From Escherichia phage EPFV3-03/2025: a stretch of 64,000 bases of DNA. Of the stretch, positions 43,619 through 52,887 are shown in pieces. The notes under the pieces were generated by a model. The model made no database searches. It was not told the DNA's origin and was given only the letters and a program-made list of their open reading frames with translations. Where the stretch lies: the sequence record PV435126.1. The stretch is one strand, 5' to 3'. The position numbers were made by a program, and so were the translations under genes. Numbering within the stretch: position 1 is the first letter of the stretch; each line of letters begins with the position of its first letter.

Positions 43619-44902
43619 CTATTCCAGAACCTCCCAAGTGTCTGGATTAACATTTCGGACGCAGATACCGACAGGGAATTGGTAGTTGTTGTCTTCTGTC
43701 CTTGCTTGATATTTAAAGGTGACAAACTTGCCGATCATTTCCTGCATCCTGCCATAGCTACGCTCCTCGTGCGTGCCTTTCATCTTCATTTTAACAACGA
43801 TGCCTTCCTTGTCAACGCAGATAAGAACACCCTCATCATTCTTATCTTTCTCAACGTCAATAACTTTCACCTCTGCGTCGTTGAACTTTTTCCATTTCAA
43901 TGCTTCAGATGTTCGCTGACCGTATTCGTATTTACCACAGAAGTTACGCATGATAGTACCTTCATACCCTTCGGACATGAATACACCAACAGATTCTTCG
44001 CAATGATCAACTGTGTACGCAATCTCTGCGTCAACAACCCTGATATGGTCAAGCATCAGAGTGGTAATGGTATCTTCTGCATCCATAAGATCCTTGCAGC
44101 GTCCAGACTCTGTTTCTGGATCCCACCACACCTTGTCACTAGGGATATCAAAAATGTGATACTCTAAGTCATAGCTACAGTACCCTCCGTAACGCAAATC
44201 ATCACGAACAGGCTCAACATCAACAGGAATATCTACCTTATTGAAGTTTTTGTATGTTGATAAGCCTGCCTTAATTGCGGCATGACGGCGTTTTTTATCT
44301 GCCTCGTAGTCTTTATCGATCTCGGCCTGAATCTCTTCCTGTGTGCGCCACCGTTTAGCAAGAGACACTATTTTCTGCAGAGGCAGACCATGAATATAGA
44401 TCTCTCCGTCGAGCTGTTTAATCCCGGTGGTGAAGTGGAAAGAACGAAGTTGCTCCAGAAGCTTTCCTTGAATAGGGTAGGACTTATTACCACGGGAAAT
44501 AAATTTAGGCTCCCCATTTTGGAAAACAACAAGTAGACGAAGGCCATCTAACTTACGCAAGATCCAGCAAGGTAATTTAAGTGCCTTTCCACGCTTCAGG
44601 TAGTCATGCACCAGCATGGGTAAAAGGTCAACGCCCTGCTCGCAATCTTCCATATTTTCAACATACCCCAGACGGACTTGTTTTTCCCACTTACTGATCG
44701 CTTCCAGCTCAGCCTGTTGCTCAGCTGTAGTTTCATTGGCACGACCCACGTTCTTAGGTGTGCAGATCGTCTCTTTGTATTGCAGTTTACCATCAAGCTT
44801 GCCAAACTCTACGATAACCTTATCACCATCCGTGAATACTTTCCACTGTTGGTAGCTGTCATCTTTGTTCAGTGCGTACAGTGTTGTTTTGATCTGATGC
44901 AT
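43619..44902 (-). CDS. ATP-dependent DNA ligase
   Basis: Motif I RKLDGLR (KxDGxR), motif IV-like EGYEGTIMR, motif V-like LKWKKF, about 90 aa OB-like tail. Confidence 0.6.
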   Translation of the reverse strand: MHQIKTTLYALNKDDSYQQWKVFTDGDKVIVEFGKLDGKLQYKETICTPKNVGRANETTAEQQAELEAISKWEKQVRLGYVENMEDCEQGVDLLPMLVHDYLKRGKALKLPCWILRKLDGLRLLVVFQNGEPKFISRGNKSYPIQGKLLEQLRSFHFTTGIKQLDGEIYIHGLPLQKIVSLAKRWRTQEEIQAEIDKDYEADKKRRHAAIKAGLSTYKNFNKVDIPVDVEPVRDDLRYGGYCSYDLEYHIFDIPSDKVWWDPETESGRCKDLMDAEDTITTLMLDHIRVVDAEIAYTVDHCEESVGVFMSEGYEGTIMRNFCGKYEYGQRTSEALKWKKFNDAEVKVIDVEKDKNDEGVLICVDKEGIVVKMKMKGTHEERSYGRMQEMIGKFVTFKYQARTEDNNYQFPVGICVRNVNPDTWEVLE

Positions 44903-49431: not shown

Positions 49432-49782
49432 ATGAAAGAGGAGGATAAGCTGCCATACCTTAAAGTCCCATTTGGAATACTGTCTATGTCAAAAGTTTTG
49501 AATGATACAACTGGAGAGGTTGTTGTTCTTGACTTGTATGACAAGATCGTATACTGCTACCTGCACAACTGGTATAAGCTTGGAGGAAATTCACGCTTCA
49601 CACCCAGCACAAGGAAAATTGCAGCAGATGTTGGGATAAAGAAAACAAAAGCAGCAGCGTGCGTTAAAACTTTAGAATGTGCAGGCGTGGTTGAAATATC
49701 CACACAAGGGAGAGGTAAAAGATGCACATTTTCCAAAGTTTTGCCACCAGAAGAGGTTATTCGAATGTCAACAACTGGTTAG
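49432..49782 (+). CDS. putative winged-helix DNA-binding protein
   Basis: 116-aa ORF; wHTH-like segment STRKIAADVGIKKTKAAACVKTLECAGVVE; directly upstream of iterons. Confidence 0.45.
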   Translation: MKEEDKLPYLKVPFGILSMSKVLNDTTGEVVVLDLYDKIVYCYLHNWYKLGGNSRFTPSTRKIAADVGIKKTKAAACVKTLECAGVVEISTQGRGKRCTFSKVLPPEEVIRMSTTG

Positions 49783-49857
49783 ACCAGTAAAAACTTAAAT
49801 ATCTGTACTATAAGGATTCGTATGTTTTATGTCCATCCAAGAGCAGAGGGTAGTAAC

Positions 49858-49945
49858 TGTCCGTAATACGGACACTACTGCCCGTCACGCGGACACATCT
49901 GCCCGTAATACGGACACTAACTGTCCGCAATACGGACACATAAAG
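49858..49945. repeat. four tandem iterons of about 21-22 bp, each with palindrome CCGTAATACGG + ACAC
   Basis: TCCGTAATACGGACACTACTG / CCCGTCACGCGGACACATCTG / CCCGTAATACGGACACTAACTG / TCCGCAATACGGACACATAAAG. Confidence 0.8.
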
Positions 49946-50443
49946 AATATAACTAAAATAACTAAATAATAAAAAATAAAAGATCTAGTACTTATGGTAC
50001 TAAAGTACATATACTTAACTTATGTAGAATATACTAGATCCTAAGTACCATGTTTTAAATTTATTACTTACTATTGGTAGTGTCGGCCCTTCATTGGCAC
50101 TCGCCTACGAGGGGCGAGATGCCGGGCCTCCATAGTGCACACAATAACAGGAGTGCATACATGCAGGACTGTTAACATGTGTGGGAGCGAAGCGATAGCG
50201 CAGGCCAAAGGCCGAGCACTAATGTGGACCACCGACGAAAGCTTGCCAGCGCCGTAAGGAGTCGGTTGAGAGCCTCCCGCGAGAGTTTAGTTAAAGTTTA
50301 TGTGTGGAAACGGACAGGAAGGCCCCTAAATCGCCACACAGCTGCGTAAACTATACCAAGTAAGGCAATCGCACCAGTTTGATAGAAAAGCTCGTTACAA
50401 AGCGATACAGTGAGTTTTTCTATAACTTGAAGAGGAGGCAGTT

Positions 50444-51022
50444 ATGAGTTCACGCAAAGATGACCGCGAAAAGATTGCAAAACGTTATCAGAATGAAGAA
50501 CAGATGGAGAAAACTTTCAAGTGGAAGCCAGGTTTCCAGCGTAATCATTCTAACGCTCGTGATCGTAAGCATCCGGATAAGTGGCTAACACCGCCAAATG
50601 ATGGCATGCAGGTTGGTGATGAGAAGGAGCTATCGCCTGGAAAAGATGGCAACTACATTCGCACTAAGGACGCTGGTCCAAAGGATGACAGCTATCTTGT
50701 AGATAAGGTTCTTGATGGTATTGATGTAGATGTTGACACCACACGGAACTTTTTTCTTGGGTGGTATCGCACAGGTTTTTTCGACATCAAGGCCATTCGT
50801 CGTGTTTGTGATATTAAAAAGTCTGCATATGATGACGACTCGTTACATCGCACCCTGAGGCAATATTCAGAAAGATATGGTCATCCGGTTATCACTCTTG
50901 ACGATGTTGACGAAGTGATGTATCATGCAGAGGTTGTTGCAGGCAGATTTGGTGATGCATATCTTGATATCCTTTCTGCAAACGATGAGGTAATGTTGAA
51001 TAAGATTTACTACGAACGTTGA
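50444..51022 (+). CDS. hypothetical protein (192 aa)
   Basis: ORF with GAGGAGG RBS. Confidence 0.55.
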   Translation: MSSRKDDREKIAKRYQNEEQMEKTFKWKPGFQRNHSNARDRKHPDKWLTPPNDGMQVGDEKELSPGKDGNYIRTKDAGPKDDSYLVDKVLDGIDVDVDTTRNFFLGWYRTGFFDIKAIRRVCDIKKSAYDDDSLHRTLRQYSERYGHPVITLDDVDEVMYHAEVVAGRFGDAYLDILSANDEVMLNKIYYER

Positions 51023-51032
51023 GGAGAGCTTA

Positions 51033-51221
51033 ATGAACAATCCGGTAGCAAAGAACTGTAATAAGTTCAACAAGTCTGCAATTCACACTGACAGGAAAAA
51101 GAGCTGGTCACCGGACATTGACGAGGAGCTTGAGAATTACTTTGAAGATCTGGTTACCAATGCAGGTGAGGTTGCGATTAAAGAATACGCAGACAGGAGG
51201 GATAAGGCCGGAATCTGTTGA
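51033..51221 (+). CDS. hypothetical protein (62 aa)
   Basis: ORF with GAGGAG RBS. Confidence 0.45.
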   Translation: MNNPVAKNCNKFNKSAIHTDRKKSWSPDIDEELENYFEDLVTNAGEVAIKEYADRRDKAGIC

Positions 51222-51297
51222 CAAAAATAATGTTACCTGATAAGATCTGCAATATGATGTGATACAATTTTAACTTACGAGGTCTACAGGTAATGCT

Positions 51298-51540
51298 ATG
51301 TTTAAGGTTAAGCTCGTTTTCCGTTCCATGAATGAGGATTATTTAGAAGATGAAGGTGAATTTCGTGCACTAGATGATGCAATAGATTTTGCCAACGACT
51401 TAGCTTGTATGAACACGGGTTATGGGTTGTGTTGTTGGGACGGTGGTATTCAGATCGGTGATAGCAAAATCTTCTACTTCTACCCTGAGCCGGATAACAA
51501 ACAAATTAAGTATGTTTTATTTATTTGTGCTTTACAATGA
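51298..51540 (+). CDS. hypothetical protein (80 aa)
   Basis: ORF. Confidence 0.45.
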   Translation: MFKVKLVFRSMNEDYLEDEGEFRALDDAIDFANDLACMNTGYGLCCWDGGIQIGDSKIFYFYPEPDNKQIKYVLFICALQ

Positions 51541-51884
51541 GGTTGTTTTCGTGTATCATGATGAATATCCAATTTAAAGATGAATTTGATGGCTTTATCT
51601 CCGGATGCTTTGAAACAGGGTTCGGAGAATGCTGAGTTCCCCTTAGAGGGCTTGATAGTGCACCACACTTAAAATGGTAGGGGCAGCCAGCACATGACGA
51701 TGTGACCCCAGCCAACCTGTAATAAGGTCGAGCCAAAGCGCGGTAATGGGTCTCTGGTAACCCACTTGTTGGGTCTTGTGGTCCAGGACGCTGGGCAAGT
51801 CGCAGGGAATACCACCCTGCGGCGAACTTGACAATCAGTATTTGCCGTGATAAAATCCACCTATCACGTGATAATGGAGGAAAC

Positions 51885-52223
51885 ATGGCGGATACAACTA
51901 AAAAGCGTCGCCGTAGAGGCAGACCTCTGAAAGAGGAGTCCAACGCCATTCAGCTAGAGAAGAACATTCTTGATATGAAGGAATCTTTTATAGCGATGGT
52001 TCCAGAAGCTCACAAAGTTTTAAGAGAGCTGATGTTGGATCCGAAAACCAAGCAAAATATTCGTCAAAGCATTGCAGAGTATGTCCTTGATAAGGCAGAC
52101 CGAATGCAGGAAGAATATGATGAGATGTTTGGTGAAGAGGAAGAGGTAGTAGTAGAAGAGGCTGAAAAACCAGCACCTTTTATGCCATTTACCACAGAGA
52201 TACAGCCTGTTGGCAATAGTTAA
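51885..52223 (+). CDS. hypothetical DNA-binding protein with basic AT-hook-like N-terminus
   Basis: ATG 51885 with GGAGGAAAC RBS and TTGACA promoter-like site upstream; KKRRRRGRP then acidic tail; small terminase is one possibility. Confidence 0.4.
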   Translation: MADTTKKRRRRGRPLKEESNAIQLEKNILDMKESFIAMVPEAHKVLRELMLDPKTKQNIRQSIAEYVLDKADRMQEEYDEMFGEEEEVVVEEAEKPAPFMPFTTEIQPVGNS

Positions 52224-52319
52224 AATATTTTCTTGACAAACTTTGCTTAACAGTGTAATATTGTAAACATGGTCTCCCACCTTTTCTGGCGGCTCAGGTG
52301 TAAAAGAAAGCCACCCAGT

Positions 52320-52394
52320 GCCCTGTTAGCTTAGTGGATAAAGCAGCGGCCTTCTAAGCCGTTGACACTGGTTCGAGTCCAGTACGGGGTGCCA
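52320..52394 (+). tRNA. tRNA-Arg (anticodon TCT)
   Basis: Manual cloverleaf: 7-bp acceptor GCCCTGT/ACGGGGT, 4-bp D-stem, anticodon loop CTTCTAA, T-loop TTCGAGT, CCA encoded. Confidence 0.75.
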
Positions 52395-52398
52395 AATT

Positions 52399-52485
52399 GG
52401 GGAGTTATCCCGTAGAGGTAGCGGTGTAGACTGTAAATCTATTGTCATTGCGACTCGGGTGGTTCGACTCCACCACTCCCCACCA
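52399..52485 (+). tRNA. tRNA-Tyr (anticodon GTA), long variable arm
   Basis: Acceptor GGGGAGT/ACTCCCC, anticodon loop CTGTAAA, T-arm GGTGG-TTCGACT-CCACC, CCA encoded. Confidence 0.7.
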
Positions 52486-52788: not shown

Positions 52789-52887
52789 GCTAGGTAAGCC
52801 CTTTGGCAAGGGCGAGGATTTTTAATCCTGAAAATAGACGAGGTAGTCGTTGAATACATAGGTGGTTCGATTCCATCACCTAGCACC
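52789..52887 (+). tRNA. atypical tRNA-like gene (possible anticodon TTT) with about 30-nt insertion before T-arm
   Basis: Perfect 7-bp acceptor GCTAGGT/ACCTAGC, D-arm GCCC-TTTGGCAA-GGGC, T-arm GGTGG-TTCGATT-CCATC, but 4-bp anticodon stem and over-long variable region; CCA not fully encoded. Confidence 0.45.

What the first reader, a model, noticed from the sequence alone, without database searches (positions are those of the whole stretch)
51541..51884. Second ORF-free GC-rich region upstream of the tRNA cluster
No + strand ORF spans these 344 bp. The three overlapping - strand ORFs from the track run antisense to the whole neighbourhood and look like artefacts of stop-poor GC-rich sequence. 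The region ends in a TTGACA promoter-like site feeding the 51885 gene. A small stable RNA is possible, by analogy with small RNAs in the tRNA regions of other large phages.
Basis: inference. Interest (0 to 1): 0.4.

Follow-up and report, generated by a model that had tools for sequence, protein, structure and literature searches.

The report
Conserved pseudoknotted small RNA of phages
The gene-free, GC-rich stretch encodes a folded RNA whose 31-base core is almost identical in about a thousand otherwise unrelated virulent phages, including T4, usually beside their tRNA genes; it matches no described RNA family and its job is unknown.

Summary
Window 51541-51884 has no spanning + strand ORF, is GC-rich (0.56 at 51630-51830, top 0.1% of the window) and ends in a TTGACA-17-TAAAAT promoter. 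The minus-strand ORFs are not conserved.

The window is a Vequintavirus (rV5-like). Inside the gap, 51680-51758 (+) folds as a nested double pseudoknot around a three-way junction. The junction core, CCUGUAAUAAGGUCGAGCCAAAGCGCGGUAA, is 85-100% identical in 984 phage records. These include T4/T2-like, Phapecoctavirus, N4-like Pylasvirus, and Pseudomonas and Vibrio phages.

Four helices covary: P1 and P2 by pair counts, the outer stem and the pseudoknot by own-versus-swapped-partner tests (0 of 20,000 each). A fifth shows one compensatory change. G-U pairs fix the + strand.

In every locus that has tRNAs, all of them lie on the motif's strand, often 40-600 nt away. In 60-kb Vibrio phages a lone tRNA-Tyr, the motif and a terminator lie antisense to the flanking genes.

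Rfam 15 has no match. It is absent from 5,426 E. coli genomes and essentially absent from 185,579 species genomes.

Verdict: a real, apparently undescribed phage RNA family. Its function is inferred only; my leading guess is an autonomous RNA made with the tRNAs. Expression is untested.

The parts
51531..51559 (+). Promoter-like site TTTACA-17-TATCAT overlapping the stop of the upstream 80-aa ORF. It is a possible start of the RNA's transcript; otherwise the RNA is read through from the 51218 promoter.
   Evidence: 10 of 12 positions. The related clade (L071/L080/L081) instead has a near-consensus TTGACA-17-TATACT about 12 nt upstream of the conserved 5' block.
51599..51627 (+). Clade-specific hairpin CUCCGGA...UUCGGAG (7 bp, 15-nt loop). 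The related clade has the promoter at this position.
   Evidence: Sequence; alignment A4.
51639..51682 (+). 5' block CCCCUUAGAGGGCUUGAUAGUGCACCACACUUAAAAUGGUAGG (hairpin CCC/GGG plus a single-stranded tail). It is nearly invariant (2-3 variable positions) between two Vequintavirinae clades whose neighbouring helices have diverged. It is probably part of the same RNA.
   Evidence: A near-repeat of it follows the motif in L071/L080/L081.
51680..51709 (+). Stem Pa. Outer helix GGGG 51680-83 with CCCC 51706-09. Inner hairpin CACAU 51691-95, loop GACG, AUGUG 51700-04.
   Evidence: Compensatory in relatives: GGAAC/GUUCC and CUACG-GACG-CGUAG. Across 20 lineages, own-partner duplex energy is -151.2 against -88.1 +/- 7.8 for swapped partners, 0 of 20,000.
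51686..51690 (+). Pseudoknot 5' strand GCCAG, in the internal loop of Pa.
51708..51754 (+). Core domain. P1: GCC 51711-13 with GGU 51749-51. P1a: CCU 51716-18 with AGG 51725-27, loop GUAAUA. P2: UC 51728-29 and GCC 51732-34 with G 51738 and GCGG 51740-43, bulge GA 51730-31. Junction strands: AA 51714-15 and UAAUG 51744-48.
   Evidence: Covariance model R1 scores 65.6 bits, E 7e-28. Pair counts on 48 distinct sequences. The 40-nt pattern occurs once in the window.
51754..51758 (+). Pseudoknot 3' strand CUGGU, pairing with 51686-90.
   Evidence: Covaries: L080 GUGAGGG/CCCUUAC, L008 CUCCGG/CCGGAG, L028 GGGUA/UACCC, L066 AACAAGAAC/GUUCUUGU. Over 18 lineages -151.9 against -112.8 +/- 8.2, 0 of 20,000.
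51760..51821 (+). 3' hairpins: ACCC-ACUUGUU-GGGU (51760-74), CCAG-GACG-CUGG (51783-94, strands swapped to GCUGG...CCAGC in the related clade) and CGCAGGG-AAUACCA-CCCUGCG (51801-21). No U-tract follows, so none is an intrinsic terminator. Whether they belong to the RNA is uncertain.
   Evidence: Inverted repeat 51659-67 / 51777-85.
51828..51856 (+). Sigma-70-type promoter TTGACA-17-TAAAAT for the 51885 gene. It marks the 3' limit of the RNA region.
   Evidence: annotated as P74 in rV5.
51521..51949 (-). 142-aa antisense ORF, judged not to be a gene.

Best explanation
The gap encodes, on the + strand, a member of a phage-specific family of structured RNAs.

Shown by comparison. An outer stem (Pa), a pseudoknot (PK) and a short closing helix (P1) form a nested double pseudoknot. 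It holds a small three-way junction made of P1, a 3-bp hairpin with a GUA..A loop (P1a), and a bulged hairpin (P2). The junction and loop bases are almost invariant from rV5-like to T4-like, N4-like, Pseudomonas and Vibrio phages.

Inferred. The RNA is transcribed with, or next to, the phage tRNA genes and is freed from the precursor by the host's tRNA and RNA processing nucleases. It then works as an autonomous module rather than as a switch for a neighbouring gene.

Most likely mechanism, as a guess. The invariant junction forms a pocket or surface that binds one conserved partner common to gamma-proteobacterial hosts. That partner could be a component of translation or tRNA metabolism, or a tRNA-directed defence nuclease, so the RNA would act as a modulator or decoy.

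Confidence. That it is a functional structured RNA on the + strand: about 0.9. That it acts as a trans-acting binder: about 0.35.
For: (1) Conservation. The core is 85-100% identical in 984 of 50,697 phage records, of which only 118 are Vequintavirus. In T4-likes the adjacent vs.8 protein has drifted to 37% identity.

(2) Covariation at positions the retrieval patterns left free.
- P1 pairs: CG33/GC10/AU4 and CG33/UA7/GC5/AU3.
- P2 pair: CG38/UA10 with 0 unpaired. Overall 90.5% of cells are paired, against 30-44% in the slid controls.
- Pa and PK: own-versus-swapped tests give 0 of 20,000 each.
- P1a: changes CCU/AGG to CCA/UGG in Vibrio phages.

(3) Strand. U-G at the P2 pair in 45 of 48 sequences, and G-U pairs in P1, would be mismatches on the other strand.

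(4) Context. Every tRNA found in motif-bearing loci is on the motif's strand.
- The motif lies inside tRNA arrays in PsgM04F and Phapecoctavirus.
- It starts 4-20 nt after a tRNA 3' end in L075, L039, L015 and L101.
- In Vibrio phage 1.012.O a lone tRNA-Tyr, the motif and a terminator lie antisense to all flanking CDSs, with no annotated CDS in that stretch.
- In the L005 type a long imperfect stem encloses about 140 nt.
- The sister Vequintavirinae clade has a near-consensus promoter directly in front.

(5) It is phage-only. No match in 5,426 E. coli genomes. The single plasmid-collection hit is a phage genome. Hits in the 185,579-species scan are at chance level.

(6) No Rfam family matches.
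Against: - No transcript data were consulted. RNA ends, abundance and stability are unknown.
- The minimum-free-energy z-score of the window sequence is unremarkable (-1.09). Pseudoknots are not modelled by that test.
- No intrinsic terminator follows in the window.
- P1 is only 3-4 bp.
- T4 itself shows no convincing pseudoknot partner.
- In all T4-likes but one examined (L029) the element sits directly upstream of vs.8, which would also fit a cis-acting role.
- No partner is identified, so the binding or decoy step is pure inference.
- Part of the core's apparent invariance in my alignment comes from the search patterns used to collect sequences. The blastn searches, which had no such constraint, give the same picture.
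Confidence: 0.5

Rival explanations
1. It is a self-cleaving ribozyme of a new class that cuts polycistronic tRNA or mRNA precursors. It would resemble the HDV-like theta ribozymes that sit at the 3' ends of phage tRNAs.
For: - The strand order is that of HDV-like ribozymes: Pa outer = P1, PK = P2, Pa inner = P3, and P1 plus core in the place of P4. This topology is supported by covariation.
- It is phage-only and on the tRNA strand.
- It begins 4-20 nt after a tRNA 3' end in several lineages.
- Tandem copies occur (L004, L033, L031, L089).
- Conservation is concentrated in junction bases, as in catalytic cores.
- There is a precedent in PMC10879173.
Against: - The linker where HDV-like ribozymes carry the catalytic C is 0-5 nt with no conserved C.
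- The P3 loop is variable, or a GNRA tetraloop, so no P1.1 can form.
- The most conserved part lies where HDV ribozymes are most variable.
- No HDV, twister, hammerhead, pistol or hatchet model scores at E <= 10.
- The spacing from tRNA ends is not fixed, and in the window no tRNA precedes the element.
Confidence: 0.2
2. It is a cis-acting leader element controlling what is transcribed or translated downstream. It could be a ligand-sensing riboswitch, or an RNA that acts on RNA polymerase to carry it through untranslated tRNA arrays (put- or nut-like antitermination).
For: - In all T4-likes but one examined (L029) it lies 70-110 nt upstream of the vs.8 start, followed by conserved hairpins.
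- In the window and in phage Ivi it lies just upstream of a promoter and gene.
- Conserved junction bases with variable helices are typical of aptamers.
- Untranslated tRNA operons are natural Rho targets (background knowledge).
Against: - In PsgM04F and Phapecoctavirus it is in mid-array. In L015, L039, L069 and KpCHEMY26 it follows the tRNAs.
- The Vibrio unit has no annotated CDS.
- A separate promoter lies between it and the next gene in the window.
- Downstream genes are unrelated among lineages.
- It has no host-genome counterpart, unlike almost all riboswitch classes.
Confidence: 0.15
3. It is a passive RNA-end structure: a compact knot that stops exonucleases or marks a processing site, stabilising the upstream mRNA or tRNA precursor.
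For: It often lies after a gene or a tRNA and before a promoter (window; Ivi; T4 after denV; KpCHEMY26).
Against: A barrier needs stability, not 31 near-invariant unpaired or junction bases kept across families of phages. Also, an own promoter sits directly upstream in the sister clade.
Confidence: 0.08
4. It is not an RNA at all. It could be a DNA site (a homing or recombination target, or a protein-binding site), a real minus-strand gene, or just stop-poor GC-rich spacer.
For: A 40-bp block shared at over 90% identity by unrelated phages could reflect recent transfer of a DNA target. A 142-aa minus-strand ORF exists.
Against: - Four helices with compensatory changes, and strand-specific G-U pairs.
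- The ORF is not conserved and has no family.
- The sequences flanking the core differ completely between lineages while keeping their pairing.
Confidence: 0.03

Closest known systems
HDV-like 'theta' ribozymes next to phage tRNAs (Kienbeck et al. 2024, PMC10879173)
   Same: Nearly confined to phages (theta: about 99% in Caudoviricetes). Theta ribozymes abut tRNA 3' ends; the motif here is on the tRNA strand and close to tRNA 3' ends in several lineages. Both have the nested double-pseudoknot order of strands (5' P1-P2-P3-P3'-P1'-P4-P4'-P2').
   Different: There is no catalytic C in the J4/2 position and no L3/P1.1 features. The invariant bases sit in the P4-equivalent domain. Hosts here are gamma-proteobacteria, not Bacteroidota or Bacillota. 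No HDV covariance model matches, and self-cleavage is untested.
T4 rnaC / rnaD (species 1 and 2 stable RNAs in the T4 tRNA cluster)
   Same: Small phage-encoded RNAs of unknown function associated with tRNA genes.
   Different: No sequence or structural similarity by eye, and model R1 hits T4 only at 64,859-64,898, not at rnaC/rnaD. In T4 the present element lies 6 kb away, between denV and vs.8.
ROOL and GOLLD large ornate RNAs
   Same: From my own knowledge: structured RNAs of unknown function, frequent in phages and prophages and often adjacent to tRNA genes.
   Different: They are 500-800 nt, mostly in Firmicutes and rumen or lake samples, and also occur in bacterial genomes. No Rfam match to them here.
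Lambda nut/boxB and HK022 put antitermination RNAs
   Same: Short structured phage RNAs placed early in operons. P1a has a GNRA-like loop with extruded bases, as boxB does. The next gene in the window starts with an arginine-rich KKRRRRGRP stretch.
   Different: The position relative to tRNA arrays is inconsistent. The arginine-rich protein occurs only in Vequintavirinae. There is no boxA. Nothing was tested.
Type III antitoxin RNAs (ToxI) and the pseudo-ToxI of phage phiTE
   Same: Small pseudoknotted RNAs. Phage copies can act as decoys for a host nuclease. Occasional tandem copies occur.
   Different: There is no tandem array, no adjacent toxin gene, no host-genome original and no Rfam ToxI match.

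Membership tests
HDV-like (incl. theta) self-cleaving ribozymes | Nested double pseudoknot: P1 and P2 interleaved, P3 hairpin inside, P4 between P1 3' and P2 3' | tested here: met
   Pa outer, PK, Pa inner and P1+core occupy these positions. Pa outer and PK are supported by own-versus-swapped tests, P1 by pair counts.
HDV-like (incl. theta) self-cleaving ribozymes | Catalytic cytosine as the first base of J4/2, followed by purines | tested here: not met
   The linker between P1 3' and PK 3' is 0-5 nt (CU in the window, none in L005/L008/L028, UAAUU in L105) with no conserved C.
HDV-like (incl. theta) self-cleaving ribozymes | 3-bp P3 with a conserved L3 able to form P1.1 with the bases after P1 | tested here: not met
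   The P3 loop is GACG (Vequintavirinae), GAAA/GCAA/GUAA (Vibrio and marine lineages) or 8 nt (T4). No conserved C-G pairing partner exists.
HDV-like (incl. theta) self-cleaving ribozymes | Site-specific self-cleavage | not testable with these tools
   Needs in vitro transcription and a cleavage assay.
Any Rfam 15 family (4,227 models) | Covariance-model score at the gathering threshold, or at least E <= 10 with lax filters | tested here: not met
   Only tRNAs in the window. Nothing credible over 49800-52400, 51560-51835 or L075 2150-2400. Only tRNAs in 7 other loci.
tRNA / tmRNA | Cloverleaf or tmRNA detected by ARAGORN or the Rfam tRNA model | tested here: not met
   No call in 51541-51884.
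Protein-coding gene (minus strand 51521-51949) | ORF kept open in relatives, plus family membership | tested here: not met
   Longest open stretch falls to 105-108 aa in three of four close relatives (L093 keeps 140 aa in another frame) and to 47-72 aa in the next clade. No PHROG.
Intrinsic terminator | GC-rich hairpin followed by a U-tract | tested here: not met
   No terminator-like site in 51541-51884.
Riboswitch / cis-regulatory leader | Constant position in the 5' leader of functionally related genes | tested here: inconclusive
   Met in T4-likes (upstream of vs.8 in all but one examined). Not met in tRNA arrays or in the Vibrio tRNA-Tyr unit, which has no annotated CDS.
Type III toxin-antitoxin antitoxin RNA | Tandem repeats next to an endoribonuclease toxin gene, present in bacterial genomes | tested here: not met
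   Single copy in the window. No match in E. coli genomes. Chance-level hits in 185,579 species genomes.

The most novel reading that the evidence does not exclude
The element is a new functional class of RNA, hidden in plain sight even in T4, where it is annotated as the N-terminus of vs.8. One option is a new self-cleaving ribozyme built on an HDV-like scaffold. The other is an RNA that captures a universal host factor, for example a tRNA-directed defence nuclease or a translation component. Either way, virulent phages of Enterobacterales, Pseudomonas and Vibrio have exchanged and kept it almost letter for letter.
Probability: 0.3. Interest if true: 0.85.

Novelty: new variant of a known kind. 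Interest (0 to 1): 0.7.

Why it matters
A 31-base RNA core kept nearly invariant across phage families that share almost no genes implies a strong common selective demand during lytic infection. That such a demand has gone unnoticed even in T4, the best-studied phage, is notable.

The element gives a concrete, easily testable object. It is small enough for in vitro cleavage, ligand and pull-down assays, and it can be deleted in T4 and rV5.

It bears on three questions:
- why phages carry tRNA arrays;
- how those untranslated operons are processed or protected;
- whether RNAs take part in counter-defence.

It also corrects annotation. The vs.8 start in T4 is probably wrong, and 'hypothetical proteins' are drawn across this region in many records.

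Tried and rejected
- **Rfam matches:** gathering and E <= 10 scans of the window, the 276-nt region and other lineages found nothing.
- **Single-sequence folding:** z-scores of -1.09 and -1.30 are uninformative.
- **Homology to T4 rnaC/rnaD:** none.
- **Second copy in the window:** the only other CM hit (44030-44075, 14.8 bits) lies inside a 427-aa ORF and is taken as chance.
- **Relation to the first GC-rich gap (50040-50440):** none. That gap is conserved only within Vequintavirus.
- **Host original or mimicry of a host RNA:** no E. coli, plasmid or species-genome counterpart.
- **A partner protein by synteny:** vs.8 accompanies the motif only in T4-likes. The flanking window proteins have no informative Pfam or PHROG annotation.
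- **Link to one tRNA identity** (the core's CUGUAA equals the tRNA-Tyr anticodon loop): the neighbouring tRNAs are of many kinds.
- **Resemblances recalled from memory, none testable:** 16S 530 loop CGGUAA, twister loop CCCAAGC, the 11-nt tetraloop receptor. All are treated as coincidence.
- **Alternative pairing of upstream GGCUUG with the core's CGAGCC:** proposed by RNAalifold but invariant, so unsupported.
- **Literature:** no paper contains the sequence. Keyword searches gave only the theta-ribozyme precedent.
- **More P1a variants:** a relaxed IMG/VR pattern returned nothing new.

Full report

The region around the finding is 96-99.5% identical to Escherichia phages of the genus Vequintavirus (rV5-like, about 136 kb).

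Coordinates 51541-51884 lie between an 80-aa ORF (51298-51540) and a 112-aa ORF starting at ATG 51885. Seven tRNA genes follow from 52320.

- No + strand ORF spans the gap.
- Four overlapping minus-strand ORFs do.
- GC is 0.483 over the gap, against 0.428 for the window. It is 0.557 for 51630-51830, reached by 0.1% of 200-bp windows.
- The gap ends in TTGACA-17-TAAAAT (51828-51856), annotated as promoter P74 in rV5. Nothing else is annotated there in rV5.

**The minus-strand ORFs are not genes**

- The 142-aa ORF has no PHROG match.
- Its longest open stretch drops to 105-108 aa in three of four near-identical relatives, and to 47-72 aa in the next clade.
- Differences among relatives include a 10-nt deletion and paired 1-nt indels.

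**The unexpected finding: a core shared far outside the genus**

A blastn search with the 344 bp found 984 phage records. Only 118 (Vequintavirus) match along the whole length. The other ~870 match just query positions ~168-211, at 85-95% identity.

The shared block is window 51712-51751, CCAACCTGTAATAAGGTCGAGCCAAAGCGCGGTAATGGGT. It is unique in the window.

Where it occurs:
- T4, with no mismatch to the degenerate pattern (one base differs from the window), right after denV. It lies inside the annotated 5' end of vs.8.
- T2, in an unannotated 343-bp gap.
- Dhaka-, Gelderland-, Jiaoda- and Karam-type T4-likes.
- Phapecoctavirus DE16 and Pseudomonas phage PsgM04F.
- The 45-kb phage Ivi.
- The N4-like Pylasvirus KpCHEMY26.
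- 60-kb and 130-kb Vibrio phages.
- Many IMG/VR and metagenome contigs.

In all, 78 distinct instances were collected.

**Structure**

Outside the core the lineages share no sequence, but they keep the same pairing scheme. In window coordinates:

| Element | Coordinates and sequence |
|---|---|
| Pa outer | GGGG 51680-83 / CCCC 51706-09 |
| Pa inner hairpin | CACAU-GACG-AUGUG, 51691-51704 |
| P1 | GCC 51711-13 / GGU 51749-51 |
| P1a | CCU 51716-18 / AGG 51725-27, loop GUAAUA |
| P2 | UC..GCC 51728-34 / G.GCGG 51738-43, bulge GA |
| Junction strands | AA and UAAUG |
| Pseudoknot | GCCAG 51686-90 / CUGGU 51754-58 |

Dot-bracket for 51676-51767:
....((((..[[[[[(((((....))))).)))).(((..(((......)))((..(((...).)))).....)))..]]]]].........

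**Tests of the structure**

*Pair counts on 48 distinct core+P1 sequences (A2)*
- 90.5% of cells pair, against 81.4 +/- 0.9 in shuffles (0 of 500) and 30-44% when partners are slid.
- The covariation score is 0.276 against 0.099.
- The two inner P1 pairs run CG33/GC10/AU4 and CG33/UA7/GC5/AU3.
- The P2 pair at columns 26-33 is CG in 38 sequences and UA in 10, and is never unpaired. The UA form occurs in several separate lineages.
- These positions were not fixed by the retrieval patterns: P1 lies outside them, the 5' base of the P2 pair was given only as Y, and its partner fell in an N gap.

*Own-versus-swapped partner tests*
- For Pa outer and PK the strand positions vary, so I compared each lineage's own partner with partners swapped between lineages.
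- PK: -151.9 against -112.8 +/- 8.2 kcal/mol, 0 of 20,000.
- Pa outer: -151.2 against -88.1 +/- 7.8, 0 of 20,000.

*P1a*
- It is invariant except in a group of Vibrio phages, where CCU/AGG became CCA/UGG. That is one compensatory event.

*Strand*
- U-G at a P2 pair in 45 of 48 sequences, plus G-U pairs in P1, fix the strand as +.

*Covariance model*
- A model of core+P1 (R1) scores the window site at 65.6 bits, E 7e-28.
- It finds 96 sites in 90 loci, with double copies in four contig families.

**The sister clade**

Within Vequintavirinae a sister clade (L071/L080/L081) is especially informative.
- Pa and PK have changed completely but compensatorily: GGAAC/GUUCC, CUACG/CGUAG, GUGAGGG/CCCUUAC.
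- The 44-nt block just upstream (window 51639-51682) is nearly invariant (2-3 variable positions).
- A near-consensus TTGACA-17-TATACT promoter sits about 12 nt before it.

In the window's clade that promoter is replaced by a hairpin (51599-51627). The nearest promoter-like site is TTTACA-17-TATCAT at 51531-51559. The functional RNA in this phage therefore probably runs from about 51640 to somewhere between 51760 and 51825. Its ends are not established.

**Context**

- In every motif-bearing locus where ARAGORN finds tRNAs, all of them are on the motif's strand.
- The motif is in mid-array in PsgM04F and Phapecoctavirus.
- It is 200-580 nt upstream of the array in Vequintavirus and the L005/L006 group.
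- It starts 4-20 nt after a tRNA 3' end in L075, L039, L015 and L101.
- In Vibrio phage 1.012.O, a single tRNA-Tyr, the motif 117 nt later and a terminator lie antisense to all neighbouring CDSs, with no annotated CDS in that stretch.
- The neighbouring tRNA species vary, so there is no link to one tRNA identity.
- In all T4-likes but one examined (L029) the element sits between the upstream gene's stop and vs.8. This holds even where vs.8 is only 37% identical. vs.8 is a 179-aa P-loop protein (PHROG 1488, unknown function).
- vs.8 is absent from the window and from non-T4 loci.

**Phage-only distribution**

- No match in 5,426 complete E. coli genomes.
- One hit in the plasmid collection, and it is a 137.5-kb Vequintavirus genome.
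- 13 pattern hits in 185,579 species genomes, which is about the chance expectation. Only a Pseudomonas megaplasmid site looks genuine.

**Comparison with known RNAs**

- Rfam 15 gives nothing beyond tRNAs at gathering thresholds. At E <= 10 nothing credible appears on the region or on two other lineages.
- No paper in the library contains the sequence.

The strand order (Pa outer, PK, Pa inner, P1+core) is that of HDV-like ribozymes. A subgroup of these, the theta ribozymes, was recently found abutting phage tRNA 3' ends (PMC10879173). The defining catalytic features fail here:
- The J4/2-equivalent linker is 0-5 nt with no conserved C.
- The P3 loop is variable or a GNRA tetraloop.
- The invariant bases lie in the P4-equivalent domain.

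So this is not an HDV-like ribozyme. A different catalytic RNA on a similar scaffold is not excluded.

**Interpretation**

Shown:
- A + strand RNA structure under strong purifying selection.
- It is phage-specific.
- It is associated with tRNA transcription units.

Inferred:
- It is released as a discrete RNA.
- It acts through its invariant three-way junction.

I favour an autonomous, trans-acting binder or decoy of a conserved host component (about 0.35), for three reasons:
- The element occurs in a unit with no annotated CDS.
- Its position relative to tRNA arrays is inconsistent.
- Its downstream genes are unrelated across lineages.

Rivals:
- A new self-cleaving or processing ribozyme (0.2).
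- A cis-acting leader or antitermination element (0.15). The vs.8 synteny is the best argument for this one.
- A passive RNA-end structure (0.08).
- Non-RNA readings (0.03).

**Caveats**

- No expression data were available.
- Single-sequence folding statistics are unremarkable.
- T4 itself lacks a clear pseudoknot partner.
- Pattern-based retrieval inflates the apparent invariance of the core, although not the covariation.

Noticed in passing
T4 NC_000866 64,253-64,912 (locus L003 4254-4913, minus strand): The annotated start of vs.8 reads through the RNA element. T2 and other T4-likes have stops in that frame. An ATG 120 nt downstream (MRTFLTGPY...) gives the 179-aa protein conserved in all T4-likes. 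The T4 annotation is probably 40 codons too long.
   Followed up: partly
window 49854-49939: Four direct repeats of 21-22 nt (TAACTGTCCGTAATACGGACAC-like) lie just downstream of an HTH/DUF6945 ORF (49432-49782), which is annotated as a replication initiation protein in APECc02. This is an iteron-like arrangement suggesting an origin.
   Followed up: partly
window 50040-50440: The 'first' GC-rich ORF-free stretch (GC 0.49) is conserved at 91-99% in 118 Vequintavirus records but nowhere else. It has no Rfam match and no relation to the motif. Its nature is open.
   Followed up: partly
window 52789-52887: ARAGORN calls a 99-nt tRNA with a four-base anticodon (atcc), and the Rfam tRNA model gives only 35.5 bits. 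It is present in several Vequintavirus relatives. It could be an odd or interrupted tRNA.
   Followed up: no
window 51885-52223: The gene after the gap encodes a 112-aa acidic-tailed protein. It starts with an arginine-rich, AT-hook-like KKRRRRGRP stretch (PHROG 3330, unknown function). The stretch is conserved in the sister clade. Its position right after a structured RNA recalls lambda nutL-N, but this was not tested.
   Followed up: no
T4-like loci, e.g. L013 4283-4350; T4 64,790-64,855 (minus strand): T4-likes carry an extra conserved 3' domain between the motif and vs.8. It includes the hairpin GCCA-AGGAA-UGGC (a GGA loop like CsrA sites) just before the vs.8 ribosome-binding site.
   Followed up: no
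L004 5093-5250, L033 9021-9179, L031 830-961, L089 159-203 and 2460-2505: Some phages carry two copies of the motif 85-115 nt apart (L004, L033, L031), or about 2.3 kb apart in L089. The second copy is more divergent (e.g. CCUGUAAUAAGGCCAGUCCGCGACGGUAA).
   Followed up: partly
Public records: Eighteen 'Campylobacter phage' records and the E. coli 'plasmid' CP057073.1 (137.5 kb) carry this Vequintavirus region and look like Vequintavirus genomes. In Vibrio phage 1.012.O the tRNA-Tyr is annotated on the wrong strand relative to ARAGORN.
   Followed up: no
L005 / L009 / L010 (tRNA arrays): The 5' strand of the long stem that encloses the motif (GUGYUCUUAUCGUUGUGA) recurs again downstream in the same arrays. 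This suggests repeated processing-stem modules between tRNA-array units.
   Followed up: no
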